Assembly (NCBI RefSeq): GCF_017348835.2 | Contig: NZ_CP072312.1 | Reading direction: 5' to 3' (one strand) | Length of the DNA stretch: 64,000 bases | Origin: Escherichia coli | Lineage (GTDB): Bacteria; Pseudomonadota; Gammaproteobacteria; Enterobacterales; Enterobacteriaceae | Part shown: positions 7,001 through 10,000 of the stretch, piece after piece | How the letters are laid out: the number at the start of each line of letters is the position of its first letter | Position numbering within the stretch: position 1 is the first letter of the stretch | Program-made: the position numbers

Positions 7001-10000
7001 CCATCTCCGTCAGACGTTTTTATATCCGGACAGCCCCTCTATGGCCACTTCTGTGCAGTATGCAATACTCGCAGGATATACACTTTTCCCCACTGGCTGT
7101 CGACCTCATAAACCAGAACAAAATGCGGGTGAATAACCAGTTCCCGGGTACCTTCCACACGACCGTTGCGGCCTTTATACGGCTGCCCGGCCAGGCTGCT
7201 GGCTGAATAACCAATTCGTTCGTCCAGTTCAATGGCGGCCATCAGGTTCTGCTCCGCAATGTACTCACGAATGCGCTTCCTGTCCTGGCTGGCCAGCATG
7301 GTCCAGAATATCTCCATCATTTACCGGCAACCTTCCTGCTCATTTCATCCCGCCATGCAGCAGCGGAAGATTCGACCATGTCATGGGGAAGCACATCGCC
7401 GCGCCCGAGTTGCTGACGTCCTGCCTCAACCTGGTCACGGAACCAGGTATTATGCTGCCGTTCAACGGTCTGGCGCATAAAATCCCGGATTAACTGAGAG
7501 CCATTACGGTCCATGCTTTTTGCAGCGGCCATAAAAGCATCCTTCAGTTCAGCGTCGATTCTTAAACTCATATTAACCTGTGCCATTTATCACCTCGTCA
7601 TTACTACGTATATACACAGTATATAACGATTCAGATATCGTCACCAGGATATGCCGCGCCAGCGGCATGGAAGGCGGCACGCTGTGGTTACATGTGATAC
7701 CGGAGTAAAACCGCCGAAGCCCGGCGTAAGCCGGTACTGATTGATAGATTTCACCTTACCCATCCCCAGCCCTGCCAGACCATATCCGCTTTCAGCCATG
7801 ATGGAGCCTCTGTGCGCGGTCGGAGTGGTCCCGACGAGGGTTTACCCGAAGTCAGGGCGTATCTCCGCGTTAGCGGGCCGTCAGGGCCGCTTACGAGCGT
7901 GTACTGAGGACTTCCAGCCAGAAGACTGACAGCGATGAGGATTATTAGTTACAACATTGATAATTAAAAGCGACTCTGTTCCGGCCCGAAGGGCCGGGGC
8001 GGGGCCGCTTTTCAGTTATGAGGGAGGGGCTTTGTGGTTTCGGTTCTGCGCTGGACCGGGGTTTTTCTGGAGGTTGTTTTTGTGTGTTGTAACTAAAGTG
8101 GCTCCGGTCGGGGCCCGCCGCTTGTGGTGGGAGGTGCATATCTGTCTGTCCACAGGACAGGCAGTGAACAGGTTTTCTTTTTAAATGAATGTAATTAAGT
8201 AGTTTAAAGGAGATATAAACAGGTGTTTAAAAGATATATTGCACCCTGTAAGACTGGCGGCTGGCGCTTTATGAGATGAACGGTTGTAACCTTATCGGGA
8301 AGTCCCTTGCAGTTTAATGTGGATAAACAAAATTGCCCGTCTGTGAGACGTGTTTTGCATCAAAAACATGGGGAACGGATGCAGCAGAAGGTGGATGATG
8401 AGGTTGTTTTTTGTATGTAGCGCTGCTTTTTTGTGCGCTGCCGGGCTTCAGGCGTGTGGATGCCTTCGGCGCGGGCCGGATTATTCTGAGGAGGTCACTT
8501 TCAGGGGGAAGCTGTGGCCAGCCGGCTGTAATTACGGTTACGTGACAGAATCATGCGCTCCTTCACACGACGCTCCACTTCGCGTTTTACCGCCTCACGA
8601 TTGTTAGTGAAGCGCCCTTCCGAGATTTCACGCGTCAGCTGCCGTTTCACCAGGGTGACGATATCCTGACGTTCCCTGCTAGCATCACGACGCGCACGGG
8701 CACGCTTTATTCCCCGGGACTTAAGCTCTGTCTGGTAACTGCGGAAACGCTCACGGACAAAACGCCAGGCTTTAGCTATCAGTTCATCCATACCCAGGGT
8801 ATCCAGTCCCTGCTTTTTGCGCTGTCTGTTTTCCCATTCCACACGACTGCGGCGCGCAGCTGCCACTGCATCCTCAGACACATCAAGGGCGGCAAACAGC
8901 CGGTGTGAATGTGATATCGGTCGGAATGTTGCAGCCAATAAGCGGGTCATATTCCGTCTGGTAGGTAATCAGCCCCAGCTCTGACAGGAACGTCAGGGCA
9001 CGGGTGGCTCGGGTGATGGAGAGTGTTCCGGCAGCAGACTCCGTCGCCAATCCGCACTCAATGGCCAGTGTGGTGATGGAGCACTGGACTCGGTTGGCCA
9101 GTGGGTCATAGTGAAAACACAGCCCCTGCAGCAGCGCATCAATGGCCCGTCGACGCAGACCACGCGAACGGGCATGCGCCACATGAATGGCGAAATCAAA
9201 ACGGGAGGTGAAGCCCACCGCCTTTTCCATCAATTTTTCGCAAAACTTCAGCGTTCCGGCACCTTCACGGGGTGTGAATACCGGATTCGGGTTCTTTACC
9301 TGACGGTAATACGTTTGTTGAAGATCAGTCACACCATCCTGCACTTATGTTGCACAGAAGGAGTGAGCACAGAAAGAAGTCTTGAACTTTTCCGGGCATA
9401 TAACTATACTCCCCGCATAGCTGAATTGTTGGCTATACGGTTTATAGATGGCCCCGGTAATCTTTCTAGTCGCCAAACTTGAAGAAGATTATCGGTTTTT
9501 TTGCTTTTCTGGCTCCTGTACGTCCACATCAGAACCAGTTCCCTGCCACCTTACGGCGTGGCCAGCCATAAAATTCCTCAAACGATCAGTAATCTATCAC
9601 GCACACCAGAAACAGGCAAGAATGTGATGTCGCTACATTTTAGTTAACTGAAAGCACTCTTCTGCTTTATCAGTTCAGCAATCATCTCAGCCTGAGTAAC
9701 GCCTTCAGCCTCACACATCTCCTGTAATTGAACTTTTAACGCAGCAGGAATGAATACTCTGAGTTCTTTATGTGTAGCACGTTTTCTTGCCAAGGACGCC
9801 TCCTGACGTTCTGCAAGCGTCAGAGGATTACCTTTTCGGTATGCTCGCTTTGTACCTGATGAGGAAGTTACTGCATTCTCTGTCTGCGACATCTCGCCTC
9901 CTCAATATTTGAACCGGGATCGTTTCGCAGAGGATACTACAGTTTTTTGAAATCAAAAACTTGAGAATTGTGACGAAGATCTGTGTTGGCGCACAAATCA

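What the first reader, a model, noticed from the sequence alone, without database searches (positions are those of the whole stretch)
7648..7710. Recurrent short hairpin motif at three backbone loci
gatatgccgcNNNNgcggcatggaagg occurs at 7648-7674 and 47988-48015, and a variant (gatatgccgcgaaagcggcttgaagg) at 55491-55516. The first two copies share a further about 40 bp (ccgaagcccggcg...). The motif forms a small GC hairpin, and the IS4 copy inserted directly beside the second occurrence. This could be a dispersed small element, a protein-binding site or a recombination site.
Basis: seen in the sequence. Interest (0 to 1): 0.4.

Follow-up and report, generated by a model that had tools for sequence, protein, structure and literature searches.

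The report
Shared hairpin of plasmid single-strand priming signals
The repeated GC hairpin is real and non-random, and it most likely marks DNA signals that work only when the plasmid strand is single-stranded: a primase start signal beside the replication origin, a broken copy beside the transfer origin, and part of a single-strand promoter for an early methylase gene.

Summary
ATGCCGC-N4-GCGGC-W-TG-R-AAGG occurs three times, all on the + strand, against 0 expected.

It is not a mobile element or a terminator. It is the 5' stem-loop of a ~130-nt structured module. An invariant CCTGC lies 121 nt after the hairpin.

- **Site 1 (7651-7781).** It starts 365-400 bp beyond IncFII oriR. That is where the R1/R100 primase-dependent "G site" is reported, a position I recall from papers I could not retrieve.
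- **Site 2 (47991-48074 plus 49516-49562).** This is a paralogue on the transferred strand, 628 nt from nic. An IS4 insertion cuts it in two.
- **Site 3 (55494-55519).** It lies at the top of a large covarying hairpin directly upstream of an M.EcoGIX-type methylase. The same block sits in the pESBL segment where a class-3 single-strand promoter was published in 2025.

The + strand is the transferred strand, and by inference the leading-strand template at oriR. The priming function is inferred, not shown. The hairpin stems never show compensatory change, so a sequence-specific protein site cannot be excluded. Mostly known biology; the three-way link is modestly new.

The parts
7651..7668 (+). 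Site 1, hairpin A: ATGCCGC-GCCA-GCGGCAT, a 7-bp stem with a 4-nt loop.
   Evidence: The stem is invariant in all retrieved copies while the loop varies (GCCA, GTCA, ATCA, ACCA, AAAA, GACA, GAAA).
7669..7721 (+). Site 1, helix S2: GG-AA-GGCGG (7669-7677) pairs with CCGCC-GAAG-CC (7711-7721) and encloses a 33-nt variable loop.
   Evidence: RNAalifold predicts the helix independently. It is 100% paired, with two compensatory pairs (GC to CG and GC to AU) between copies 1 and 2. Copy 3 uses GGGCG/CGCCC.
7721..7739 (+). Site 1, mini-hairpin B, CCGGC-GTAA-GCCGG (core GCGTAAGC), followed by TACTG.
   Evidence: It belongs to the GCGNNAGC mini-hairpin class also found in hairpin I of the G4 and alpha3 complementary-strand origins. 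TACTG is not invariant: it reads TACGG in pESBL and in L040.
7771..7781 (+). Site 1, CCTGCCAGACC. Its CTG (7772-7774), 121 nt after the start of hairpin A, is the candidate primase start.
   Evidence: CCTGC is invariant in 15/15 type-1 and type-2 sequences. MAFFT aligns it with the primer-start CTG of phages G4, alpha3 and St-1. The pattern occurs only twice in the window. It lies 365-367 bp beyond the inferred end of oriR.
8139..8326 (-). IncFII oriR, the context for site 1. It has a perfect DnaA box (8318-8326) at the repA-proximal end and an AT-rich stretch at about 8175-8250. The 188-bp extent is inferred from the published R1 origin.
   Evidence: repA lies at 8501-9334 on the - strand, and CopA RNA at 9417-9506.
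47354..47371 (+). F-type oriT nick sequence GTGGGGTGT|GGTGCTTTT. It shows that the + strand is the transferred strand, entering the recipient 5' to 3' towards higher coordinates.
   Evidence: Exact match on the + strand. traM, traJ and FinP lie to the left on the - strand.
47991..48074 (+). Site 2, proximal half: hairpin A (47991-48008), helix S2 (GGAAGGCCA at 48009-48017 pairing with TGGCC-GAAG-CC at 48052-48062), and mini-hairpin B, CCCGC-GAA-GCGGG (48062-48074).
   Evidence: It starts 28 nt after the stop codon of the SLT 'gene X' and 628 nt 3' of nic.
48075..49504 (.). IS4-family insertion that splits site 2. It is flanked by the 11-bp duplication CGCGAAGCGGG (48064-48074 and 49505-49515).
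   Evidence: Only 33 of 4235 matching plasmids cover at least 80% of a query that spans the IS4 junction. F and other plasmids are uninterrupted here.
49516..49562 (+). Site 2, distal half: a spacer containing GGTAACTG, then the invariant CCTGCCAGACC (49552-49562, CTG at 49553-49555). With the IS4 removed, this CTG is again 121 nt from hairpin A.
55494..55519 (+). Site 3, hairpin A variant: ATGCCGC-GAAA-GCGGCTT (mini-hairpin core GCGAAAGC) plus GAAGGGCG. Its GGGCG (55515-55519) pairs with CGCCC at 55584-55588.
   Evidence: It is identical in 68 of 77 unique metagenomic homologues retrieved without using the hairpin as an anchor.
55400..55645 (+). Large single-strand hairpin that contains site 3 in its apical multibranch region. 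It lies directly 5' (in the sense of transcription) of the M.EcoGIX-type methylase gene (54664-55347, - strand). An invariant CTG sits at 55616-55618, 122 nt after hairpin A.
   Evidence: The DNA fold has z = -5.8. The long stem has many compensatory pairs across 20 homologues. The same block lies 146 nt upstream of M.EcoGIX in pESBL, the intergenic position where Wen et al. 2025 placed the class-3 ssDNA promoter.

Best explanation
**What it is.** The recurrent hairpin is the 5'-most stem-loop of a family of related DNA modules that act only when their strand is single-stranded. These are single-strand initiation (ssi) signals.

**Architecture of copies 1 and 2.** On the + strand the module runs as follows:
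- hairpin A;
- immediately after it, helix S2, in which the GGAAGGC tail pairs with the GCCGAAGCC block;
- a GCGNNAGC-type mini-hairpin B;
- a spacer;
- an invariant CCTGC 121 nt after hairpin A.

**Proposed mechanism (inferred).**
1. The strand is exposed, either by helicase unwinding from oriR or by conjugative entry.
2. The three stem-loops fold and stay free of SSB.
3. Host primase DnaG recognises the folded structure.
4. Primase starts a primer at a CTG 3' of the hairpins and copies towards them.
5. DNA polymerase III extends the primer.

**The three copies.**
- Copy 1 is the IncFII/IncI 'G site', which starts the leading strand about 365-400 bp beyond oriR.
- Copy 2 is a paralogue on the transferred strand, 628 nt from nic. 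In an intact plasmid it would prime the complement of the oriT-proximal end in the recipient. Here IS4 has separated its hairpins from the start site, so it is probably dead.
- Copy 3 is the same hairpin-plus-S2 module built into the apex of the class-3 single-strand promoter hairpin, which drives the early methylase operon. What the small hairpin does there is unknown.

**Shown versus inferred.** Shown here: the recurrence, the strand, the structure with covariation of S2 and of the long stem, the positions, and the IS4 disruption. Inferred: primase recognition, the identity of the start site, and the direction of replication.
For: - **Recurrence.** Three copies, all on the + strand, with 0 expected.
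- **Strand.** The + strand carries the F-type nick sequence, so it is the transferred strand. The leading-region genes lie on the - strand, so the + strand is their template.
- **Position of copy 1.** It lies 365-400 bp beyond oriR, located by its perfect DnaA box. The same element lies downstream of repA on the equivalent strand in the IncI-gamma plasmid pESBL.
- **Structure.** S2 is predicted independently and is 100% paired. Three different helices are used: GGCGG/CCGCC, GGCCA/TGGCC and GGGCG/CGCCC.
- **Constraint.** The stems plus tail are 21/21 identical between copies 1 and 2, against 46% for the rest of the element.
- **Start-site candidate.** CCTGC at +121 is invariant in 15/15 sequences. 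The spacing is identical in copies 1 and 2 despite indels between them.
- **Phage resemblance.** That CTG aligns with the annotated primer-start CTG of G4, and with alpha3 and St-1. The mini-hairpins have GCGNNAGC-type cores like G4 hairpin I.
- **No gene to transcribe at copy 2.** Its 5' side on the template is the convergent end of gene X.
- **Strand-specific variation.** In 77 unique homologues of copy 3 retrieved without anchoring on the hairpin, the only stem change is C to T, seen in four different sequence backgrounds. It keeps a G·T pair on this strand.
- **Copy 3 context.** The large hairpin has z = -5.8, its long stem covaries, and it sits a fixed ~146 nt before the methylase start codon. 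This matches the published class-3 promoter position.
- **Wider context.** Complementary-strand synthesis of F in recipients is not blocked by rifampicin.
- **From memory, papers not retrievable here.** Masai & Arai 1989 (JBC 264:8082) and Bernander et al. 1992 (EMBO J 11:4481) place a primase-dependent leading-strand start about 400 bp downstream of R1 oriR. Tanaka et al. 1994 (J Bacteriol 176:3606) report that plasmid and phage G sites resemble each other only near the primer start.
Against: - There is no experiment here, and the defining G-site papers could not be read. The identity of copy 1 with the published G site rests on position and on my recall.
- The covariance model of copies 1 and 2 does not hit the G4, alpha3 or St-1 origins.
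- The start site is ambiguous. TACTG, next to hairpin B, reads TACGG in IncI-type copies. The invariant +121 CTG has no hairpin directly beside it, unlike in G4.
- The hairpin A stems never show a compensatory double change. The pairing of hairpin A itself is therefore not proven.
- RNAalifold pairs the copy-3 hairpin sequence with an upstream invariant block instead of folding it on itself.
- Two inverted Ter-like sites lie between oriR and copy 1. That is awkward for a helicase travelling from oriR to the G site.
- Copy 3 scores only E of about 0.003-0.02 against the model of copies 1 and 2, mostly through hairpin A. Homology beyond the hairpin and S2 is weak.
Confidence: 0.6

Rival explanations
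1. Hairpin A is a duplex palindromic binding site (ATGCCGC-N4-GCGGCAT) for a dimeric plasmid or host protein. Examples would be a regulator or partition/maintenance factor acting at the origin, next to oriT and in front of the methylase operon.
For: Both half-sites are invariant while the 4-nt spacer varies freely. This is the classic signature of a protein-bound palindrome. No compensatory double change in the stems was found in about 120 distinct copies.
Against: The conserved flank is asymmetric: GGAAGGC lies on one side only. That flank pairs with a distant block, with compensatory changes. All copies share the strand that becomes single-stranded. The only stem variant is C to T, which keeps a G·T pair on this strand but would give A·C on the other. 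No candidate binding protein is encoded next to all three sites.
Confidence: 0.12
2. All three copies are, or derive from, RNA-polymerase single-strand promoters of the class-3 type. On this reading copies 1 and 2 are relics, or prime DNA synthesis through RNA polymerase transcripts as Frpo does, not through primase.
For: Copy 3 lies inside the segment reported as a class-3 ssDNA promoter. All three types share hairpin A, S2 and a conserved CTG about 120 nt downstream. Frpo transcripts can serve as primers. In this window copy 1 sits 64 nt upstream of yacA on the template strand.
Against: Copies 1 and 2 lack the long covarying stem that defines copy 3 (against 24 and 79). Copy 2 faces the 3' end of a convergent gene. 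The 5' neighbours of copy 1 differ between lineages, so no gene is consistently downstream. No -35/-10 pair was detected, although the scan tests duplex sequence only.
Confidence: 0.12
3. A dispersed mobile or recombinogenic element: a REP/MITE-like repeat, or a hairpin target for a transposase or recombinase.
For: IS4 inserted inside copy 2. In five lineages the sequence 5' of copy 1 changes right at the edge of hairpin A.
Against: The copies have no terminal inverted repeats or target duplications. They occupy the same positions in thousands of plasmids. The IS4 insertion is a single event, present in at most 33 of 4235 records. The variable 5' flanks are swapped toxin-antitoxin cassettes, at least one of which still shows diverged homology. 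That fits a module boundary better than a cleavage site. There are no hits outside plasmid-like contigs of Enterobacterales apart from chance matches in GC-rich genomes.
Confidence: 0.05
4. An RNA-level element: an intrinsic terminator or a 3'-end stabilising hairpin for gene X and for transcripts leaving repA/oriR.
For: Copy 2 starts 28 nt after the gene X stop codon on the coding strand. A terminator-like hairpin with a short T run is called on the - strand at 7726-7712, inside copy 1.
Against: Hairpin A has no T/U run on either strand at any site, and no scan calls it a terminator. The - strand terminator-like feature uses the second block, not hairpin A, and it is absent from copy 2. No Rfam family matches at gathering score. 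Copy 1 has no + strand gene upstream.
Confidence: 0.04

Closest known systems
G site of plasmids R1/R100 and the ssi signal near the ColIb origin. These are primase-dependent priming signals (Masai & Arai 1989; Tanaka et al. 1991, 1994; cited from memory).
   Same: Copy 1 lies on the presumed leading-strand template 365-400 bp beyond IncFII oriR. The same element lies downstream of the IncI-gamma repA. It has several stem-loops 5' of a CTG, and its only resemblance to phage G sites is near the start.
   Different: I could not compare it with the published sequence or the published primer start. Copies 2 and 3 lie outside vegetative origins. To my knowledge they are not annotated as G sites.
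Complementary-strand origins of phages G4, alpha3 and St-1 (the prototype primase G sites).
   Same: The order on the template is stem-loops first, then CTG. They have a GCGNNAGC-type mini-hairpin. The 5' arm of hairpin I is TGGA(A/C)GGCG, against TGGAAGGCG in the plasmid motif tail. Around the start, the phages read CC(T)CCTGC(T/A)AAGCC and the plasmids read CCCTGC(C/T)A(G/A)(A/G)CC.
   Different: There is no detectable overall homology, and the covariance model gives no hit. In the phages hairpin I is a closed hairpin that abuts the CTG. In the plasmids the equivalent helix encloses a 33-35-nt loop, and the invariant CTG lies 37 nt beyond the last hairpin.
Class-3 single-strand DNA promoter of the M.EcoGIX operon (Wen et al. 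2025, PMC12672017).
   Same: Copy 3 and its large hairpin occupy the same intergenic position. They are near-identical to the pESBL sequence upstream of M.EcoGIX, on the transferred strand.
   Different: The paper describes the class-3 hairpin as different from all the other hairpins it identified. Here its apex shares hairpin A and S2 with the origin G site and with the oriT-proximal element. I could not see the paper's figure to place its -35, -10 and +1 relative to the motif.
Frpo / ssi class-1 single-strand promoters (F ssiD and ssiE; ColIb ssi1-3).
   Same: They lie in the leading region on the transferred strand, are active only as folded single strands, and can supply primers.
   Different: No sequence relationship was found. 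The model and the motif hit nothing at the Frpo positions of F or in the rest of its leading region. Frpo elements are ~300-nt hairpins that are 92% identical to each other.
Extraordinarily stable GCGNNAGC / GCGNAGC DNA mini-hairpins (Hirao et al.; PMC13037366).
   Same: The cores are GCGAAAGC (copy 3, hairpin A), GCGTAAGC (copy 1, hairpin B) and GCGAAGC (copy 2, hairpin B). The review reports that such hairpins bind SSB poorly and occur at the G4, St-1 and alpha3 priming sites.
   Different: Hairpin A of copies 1 and 2 has other loops (GCCA, AAAA). The mini-hairpin rule therefore does not explain the conserved ATGCCGC/GCGGCAT stems.

Membership tests
Primase-dependent G site (G4-type ssi) | It lies on the strand that is exposed as single-stranded DNA (the leading-strand template or the transferred strand). 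| tested here: met
   All copies are on the + strand. The + strand carries nic and is the template of the leading-region genes. For oriR, the assignment assumes replication away from repA, which is literature knowledge recalled from memory. pESBL shows the same geometry.
Primase-dependent G site (G4-type ssi) | Several stable stem-loops lie 5' of the start site on the template. | tested here: met
   Hairpin A, S2 and mini-hairpin B are predicted. S2 has compensatory pairs. Hairpin A is invariant, so it has no covariation evidence of its own.
Primase-dependent G site (G4-type ssi) | A 5'-CTG-3' initiation trinucleotide lies 3' of the stem-loops, with local resemblance to the phage start regions. 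| tested here: inconclusive
   CCTGC at +121 is invariant and aligns with the phage start CTG. However, it lies 37 nt from the nearest hairpin. The hairpin-adjacent TACTG is not invariant. In copy 2 the CTG is severed from the hairpins by IS4.
Primase-dependent G site (G4-type ssi) | For the IncFII G site: a position about 400 bp downstream of oriR. | tested here: met
   The DnaA box is at 8318-8326, and the inferred end of oriR is about 8139. The candidate CTGs are at 7772 (367 bp) and 7737 (402 bp).
Primase-dependent G site (G4-type ssi) | Rifampicin-resistant primer synthesis that depends on DnaG and SSB, and rescue of an origin-less M13 phage. | not testable with these tools
   This needs biochemistry or a plaque assay.
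Primase-dependent G site (G4-type ssi) | Detectable sequence or structure homology to the phage G4-type origins. | tested here: not met
   The covariance model R1 gives no hit in the G4, alpha3 or St-1 genomes at E up to 10. Only short local similarities are seen. As I recall it, the literature reports the same lack of overall resemblance.
Class-3 ssDNA promoter (M.EcoGIX promoter), copy 3 only | It lies in the intergenic segment immediately upstream of an M.EcoGIX-type methylase, on the transferred strand. | tested here: met
   The methylase start codon lies ~146 nt 5' of hairpin A on the template in the window, in F, in pESBL and in most other homologues with an adjacent methylase (range 120-147 nt, or 67-68 nt where a longer upstream ORF is called). 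The methylase is 90% identical to the pESBL protein.
Class-3 ssDNA promoter (M.EcoGIX promoter), copy 3 only | It folds as a large stem-loop when single-stranded. | tested here: met
   The fold energy is -112.9 kcal/mol with z = -5.8. Of 73 consensus pairs, 19 have compensatory changes.
Class-3 ssDNA promoter (M.EcoGIX promoter), copy 3 only | -35/-10 boxes are reconstituted in the stem, and the transcription start is mapped. | tested here: inconclusive
   The duplex scan finds no promoter. I could not identify convincing hexamers by eye. The figure carrying the mapped +1 is not held.
Frpo / class-1 ssDNA promoter | Sequence similarity to F Frpo1 and Frpo2. | tested here: not met
   In F, the motif and model R1 hit only the gene X-proximal site and the methylase-proximal site. 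They hit nothing at the Frpo positions.
REP/MITE-like dispersed repeat or recombination site | Terminal repeats or target duplications, variable insertion sites, copies in unrelated contexts. | tested here: not met
   The positions are fixed across thousands of plasmids. The only target duplication belongs to the IS4. Matches outside the Enterobacterales are unrelated GC-rich sequences.
Intrinsic transcription terminator | A GC-rich hairpin followed by a T/U run. | tested here: not met
   Hairpin A has no T run on either strand at any copy, and no scan calls it a terminator.

The most novel reading that the evidence does not exclude
The oriR G site, the oriT-proximal element and the class-3 single-strand promoter are one homologous family, sharing hairpin A, S2 and a CTG at about +120. 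On this reading all of them are entry sites for host primase DnaG on the transferred strand. They would supply the rifampicin-resistant priming of complementary-strand synthesis in recipients of F-like plasmids, which carry no primase of their own. The class-3 element would then be a dual primase and RNA-polymerase signal. The invariant ATGCCGC/GCGGCAT stems would be a sequence-specific recognition determinant, not merely a structural one.
Probability: 0.2. Interest if true: 0.65.

Novelty: new member of a known kind. Interest (0 to 1): 0.38.

Why it matters
How the incoming single strand of F-like plasmids is primed in the recipient is still debated. Recent work shows that conversion to double-stranded DNA is discontinuous and is not blocked by rifampicin. 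Only RNA-polymerase-type single-strand promoters have been mapped in the leading region.

A conserved paralogue of the origin G site, 628 nt from nic on the transferred strand, would be a concrete and testable candidate for a primase entry site. It is present in F and in the roughly 4,200 plasmid records that match the region. I did not find it in the one IncI plasmid examined, pESBL. From general knowledge, IncI plasmids encode their own primase.

The shared hairpin-plus-S2 module also links a 1989-era replication signal to a promoter class described in 2025. This suggests a common origin or a shared recognition step.

For annotation, the 'hypothetical protein' ORFs drawn over copies 1 and 3 are probably spurious. 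In this particular plasmid the oriT-proximal copy is interrupted by IS4.

Most of this is known biology rediscovered, so the value is moderate.

Tried and rejected
- **Rfam.** A scan of the whole window at gathering thresholds found no family at any of the three sites.
- **Phage search.** A BLAST search of copy 1 against phage genomes gave only chance hits.
- **Literature.** The primary G-site and ssi papers (Masai & Arai 1989; Nomura 1991; Tanaka 1994; Bernander 1992) are not in the library. Their content is cited from memory only.
- **Phage origins.** The covariance model of copies 1 and 2 gave no hit against G4, alpha3 and St-1. I therefore do not claim sequence-family membership with the phage origins.
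- **Distant IncFII-like replicons.** I tried to reach them by DNA search and by tblastn with RepA.
- **Viral-contig scans.** The flank-anchored copy-3 pattern gave 0 hits. The copy-1/2 pattern gave 4 true copies among 22 hits, all with an intact hairpin A.
- **Compensatory changes in hairpin A.** I looked for them in 77 unique metagenomic homologues of copy 3 and found none.
- **Promoter boxes.** I tried to place -35/-10 hexamers in the copy-3 hairpin by eye and with the duplex scan. Nothing was convincing.
- **Minus strand as template.** I considered this, because ATCCTG follows the hairpin on that strand. I rejected it because that flank is replaced in five lineages, and because the phage-like start block and copies 2 and 3 all point to the + strand.
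- **TACTG as the start.** I first took TACTG, next to hairpin B, as the primer start. I downgraded it after finding TACGG in IncI-type copies.

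
Full report
**1. Observation.** The three sequences are present as described. ATGCCGCNNNNGCGGCWTGRAAGG, allowing up to 2 mismatches, matches at 7651, 47991 and 55494. All three matches are on the + strand, and no shuffle gave a match. A covariance model built later from copies 1 and 2 finds only these three places in the window. Three points need correcting. Copy 2 starts gTTatgcc rather than gATatgcc. The extra similarity between copies 1 and 2 is a 17-nt block, GCCGAAGCCC[G/C]GCG, about 40 nt downstream, not 40 contiguous bases. The IS4 is inside copy 2, not beside it.

**2. Context.** The window is an IncFII/IncFIB F-like plasmid, near-identical to pF2_18C_FIB, NZ_CP043544.1.
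- Copy 1 lies between yacA (7317-7586, - strand) and IncFII repA (8501-9334, - strand). It is beyond oriR, whose perfect DnaA box is at 8318-8326.
- Copy 2 starts 28 nt after the stop codon of the lytic transglycosylase 'gene X' (47361-47963, + strand).
- The F-type nick sequence GTGGGGTGT|GGTGCTTTT is on the + strand at 47354-47371. The + strand is therefore the transferred strand, and copy 2 lies 628 nt from its 5' end.
- Copy 3 lies 146 nt upstream of a DNA methylase gene (54664-55347, - strand). It is inside an annotated 'hypothetical' ORF.

**3. Three classes of one module.** I scanned one genome per prokaryotic species for the exact motif. This gave 54 loci. The enterobacterial hits fall into three classes.
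- Type 1 is like copy 1 and lies downstream of an IncFII or IncI repA.
- Type 2 is like copy 2 and lies next to gene X and oriT. F has one.
- Type 3 is like copy 3. It is often present twice per leading region.

The remaining hits are unrelated GC-rich sequences. F carries types 2 and 3, and the IncI-gamma plasmid pESBL carries types 1 and 3. In each plasmid, all copies lie on the strand that serves as template for the leading-region genes.

**4. IS4.** The insertion runs from CAATGCC... to ...GGCATTG (48075-49504). It is flanked by CGCGAAGCGGG on both sides. Removing it restores the sequence found in other plasmids. Homology between types 1 and 2 then runs from about 45 nt before hairpin A to an identical CCTGCCAGACC.

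**5. Structure of types 1 and 2.** RNAalifold on 15 distinct sequences recovers hairpin A. Directly abutting it, it recovers a helix in which GG-AA-GGCGG pairs with CCGCC-GAAG-CC. S2 is 100% paired, and two of its pairs are changed on both sides between types 1 and 2. Type 3 uses GGGCG/CGCCC. A third small hairpin follows: CCGGC-GTAA-GCCGG in type 1 and CCCGC-GAA-GCGGG in type 2, which is again a compensatory swap. Its core is of the GCGNNAGC/GCGNAGC 'mini-hairpin' class. Between copies 1 and 2 the stems plus tail are 21/21 identical, the loop is 1/4 identical, and the rest is 46% identical. The single-sequence folds are only modestly better than shuffles, with z of about -2.4.

**6. Resemblance to primase start signals.** The complementary-strand origin of phage G4 is annotated in its genome record. 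It has stem-loops followed by CTACTG, and the primer is copied back over hairpin I, which contains GCGAAAGC. Phages alpha3 and St-1 read GTGGAAGGCG-TTAG-CCGCCTTCC-CTCCTGCTAAGCC. The plasmid modules share three features with them.
- The 5' arm TGGAAGGCG.
- A mini-hairpin.
- A start-like block: CCTGC, 121 nt after hairpin A, is invariant in 15/15 type-1 and type-2 sequences. MAFFT aligns it with the phage start CTG. The pattern CCTGCYARRCC occurs only at these two places in the window, against 0.22 expected.

The spacing of 121 nt is identical in copies 1 and 2. There is no overall homology, however, and the covariance model does not hit the phage genomes. As I recall it, Tanaka et al. 1994 say the same: phage and plasmid G sites resemble each other only near the primer start.

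**7. Position at oriR.** I take oriR as the 188 bp that start at the DnaA box, which is the published R1 arrangement as I recall it. The candidate CTGs then lie 367 bp (7772) and 402 bp (7737) beyond it. This matches the 'about 400 bp downstream of oriR' reported for the primase-dependent leading-strand start of R1 by Masai & Arai 1989 and, in vivo, by Bernander et al. 1992. The title of the second paper is confirmed, but the content of both is recalled from memory. If replication moves away from repA, the + strand is the leading-strand template. pESBL has the same element on the equivalent strand downstream of its repA. This fits my recollection that an ssi signal lies close to the ColIb origin. 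In five lineages the sequence 5' of type 1 changes at the edge of hairpin A, where different toxin-antitoxin cassettes abut it. Hairpin A is thus the outer boundary of the conserved origin module.

**8. Copy 3.** The + strand of 55340-55740 folds into a large hairpin at -112.9 kcal/mol, z = -5.8. Across 20 homologues the long stem has many compensatory pairs, and S2 is predicted again. In the window, in F, in pESBL and in most other homologues with an adjacent methylase, an M.EcoGIX-type methylase starts about 146 nt beyond hairpin A. Second copies precede other genes at a similar distance. Wen et al. 2025 report a large hairpin in the segment 5' of M.EcoGIX in pESBL, with a mapped start site, as a 'class 3' single-strand promoter. 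They mark promoters homologous to the newly identified pESBL ones on their map of F. The pESBL block is near-identical to copy 3. Copy 3 is therefore part of a known element, but the role of the small hairpin in it is open. RNAalifold prefers to pair that sequence with an upstream invariant block. I could not place the -35 and -10 boxes.

**9. Test of hairpin A without ascertainment bias.** A metagenome scan anchored only on the flanks of type 3 returned 120 loci and 77 unique sequences.
- 68 sequences keep the motif exactly.
- 4 sequences change the last base of the tail.
- 1 sequence is divergent but keeps GCGAAAGC.
- 4 sequences, from different backgrounds, carry the same C-to-T change. This turns a G-C pair into a G·T pair on this strand.

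No compensatory double change was seen. The stems are therefore constrained in sequence, not only in pairing. This keeps a sequence-specific recognition step, or a duplex protein site, in play.

**10. Alternatives rejected.**
- Terminator: hairpin A has no T run and is not called at any site. A weak - strand terminator-like hairpin uses the second block of copy 1 only.
- Mobile element or recombination site: the positions are fixed in thousands of plasmids, and only IS4 has a target duplication.
- Frpo: there is no similarity.

**11. Mechanism and confidence.** The most likely reading, at about 0.6 overall, is that the motif is the leading stem-loop of single-strand initiation modules.
- Copy 1 is the origin G site (about 0.7).
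- Copy 2 is a transferred-strand paralogue, now severed from its start block by IS4 (about 0.5 for a priming function in intact plasmids).
- Copy 3 is embedded in the class-3 promoter (about 0.85 for location; the role of the hairpin there is unknown).

Shown here are the recurrence, the strand, the structure and its covariation, the positions and the disruption. Primase recognition, the start nucleotide and the direction of replication are inferred.

**12. Unresolved.**
- Which CTG is used as the start.
- Whether the CTG about 120 nt after hairpin A in type 3 reflects homology or chance.
- How a helicase gets from oriR to copy 1 across two inverted Ter-like sites.

**13. Verdict.** The modestly new points are the oriT-proximal paralogue and the shared module that links the origin G site to the class-3 single-strand promoter.

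Noticed in passing
window 8898-8899 (repA, 8501-9334, - strand): The IncFII repA has a 2-bp deletion (GC) relative to NZ_CP043544.1. This splits it into two ORFs, 8501-8950 and 8883-9344. The cause is either an inactivated IncFII initiator, leaving the plasmid to rely on its IncFIB replicon, or a sequencing error.
   Followed up: partly
window 7946-7959 (-) and 8082-8095 (+): Two inverted Ter-like (Tus-binding) cores, CAATGTTGTAACTA and GTGTGTTGTAACTA, lie between oriR and copy 1. They are probably the R1/R100 TerR sites. Their position between the origin and the putative leading-strand start is puzzling.
   Followed up: partly
window 7641-7799 (-) and 55424-55729 (-): The 'hypothetical protein' ORFs annotated in the reference plasmid lie over copy 1 and over the whole copy-3 hairpin. 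Homologues of the copy-3 region differ by indels that are not multiples of three, so at least that ORF is probably an annotation artefact.
   Followed up: partly
L006, L037, L038, L039, L042, L043, L045 (also L140, L144, L149, L150, L153): In Citrobacter, Raoultella, Buttiauxella and Erwinia plasmids the type-3 cassette occurs twice, 0.5-1.7 kb apart, on the same strand. In most loci one copy lies about 145 nt before a methylase start codon. The second copy lies a similar distance before another gene, such as a 311-aa MPNWCANR... protein or a 155-aa protein, or 164 nt before a 77-aa protein. The cassette therefore behaves as a portable promoter and leader.
   Followed up: partly
window 7300-8300 versus 47400-48400 and 55000-56000: In NZ_CP043544.1 the replicon segment matches on the opposite strand to the leading region, whereas in the window both are co-linear. 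The window's plasmid therefore differs from that reference by an inversion, probably IS-mediated. Six ALIL (IS3-family frameshift) hits show many IS copies.
   Followed up: no
L027, L040 (1727), L047, L053, L069/L084/L085 versus window 7600-7650: The sequence 5' of type-1 copies is replaced at the edge of hairpin A in five lineages, where different toxin-antitoxin cassettes adjoin the origin module. L069, L084 and L085 are 46-92 kb contigs from a viral database, so they may be phage-plasmids with an IncFII-type origin.
   Followed up: partly
window 7712-7726 (- strand): A terminator-like hairpin, CGCCGGGCTTCGGCG followed by GTTTTAC, lies on the - strand and overlaps the second block of copy 1. 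It is mutually exclusive with S2 and hairpin B. It could stop transcripts leaving oriR towards yacAB.
   Followed up: no
L118 (metagenome contig), about 4721-4843 (-): A divergent relative of type 3 keeps the flanking blocks and the GCGAAAGC core but replaces the outer stem of hairpin A. The result, GGGGC...GCGAAAGCCCC, suggests a shifted helix.
   Followed up: no
L054 1530-1613 (-): A type-1 copy has a 21-nt deletion between two CCGG repeats. The deletion removes the 3' strand of S2 (GAGTAAAACCGCCGAAGC) but keeps hairpin A, hairpin B, TACTG and CCCTGCC. It is a natural variant that could show whether S2 is dispensable.
   Followed up: no
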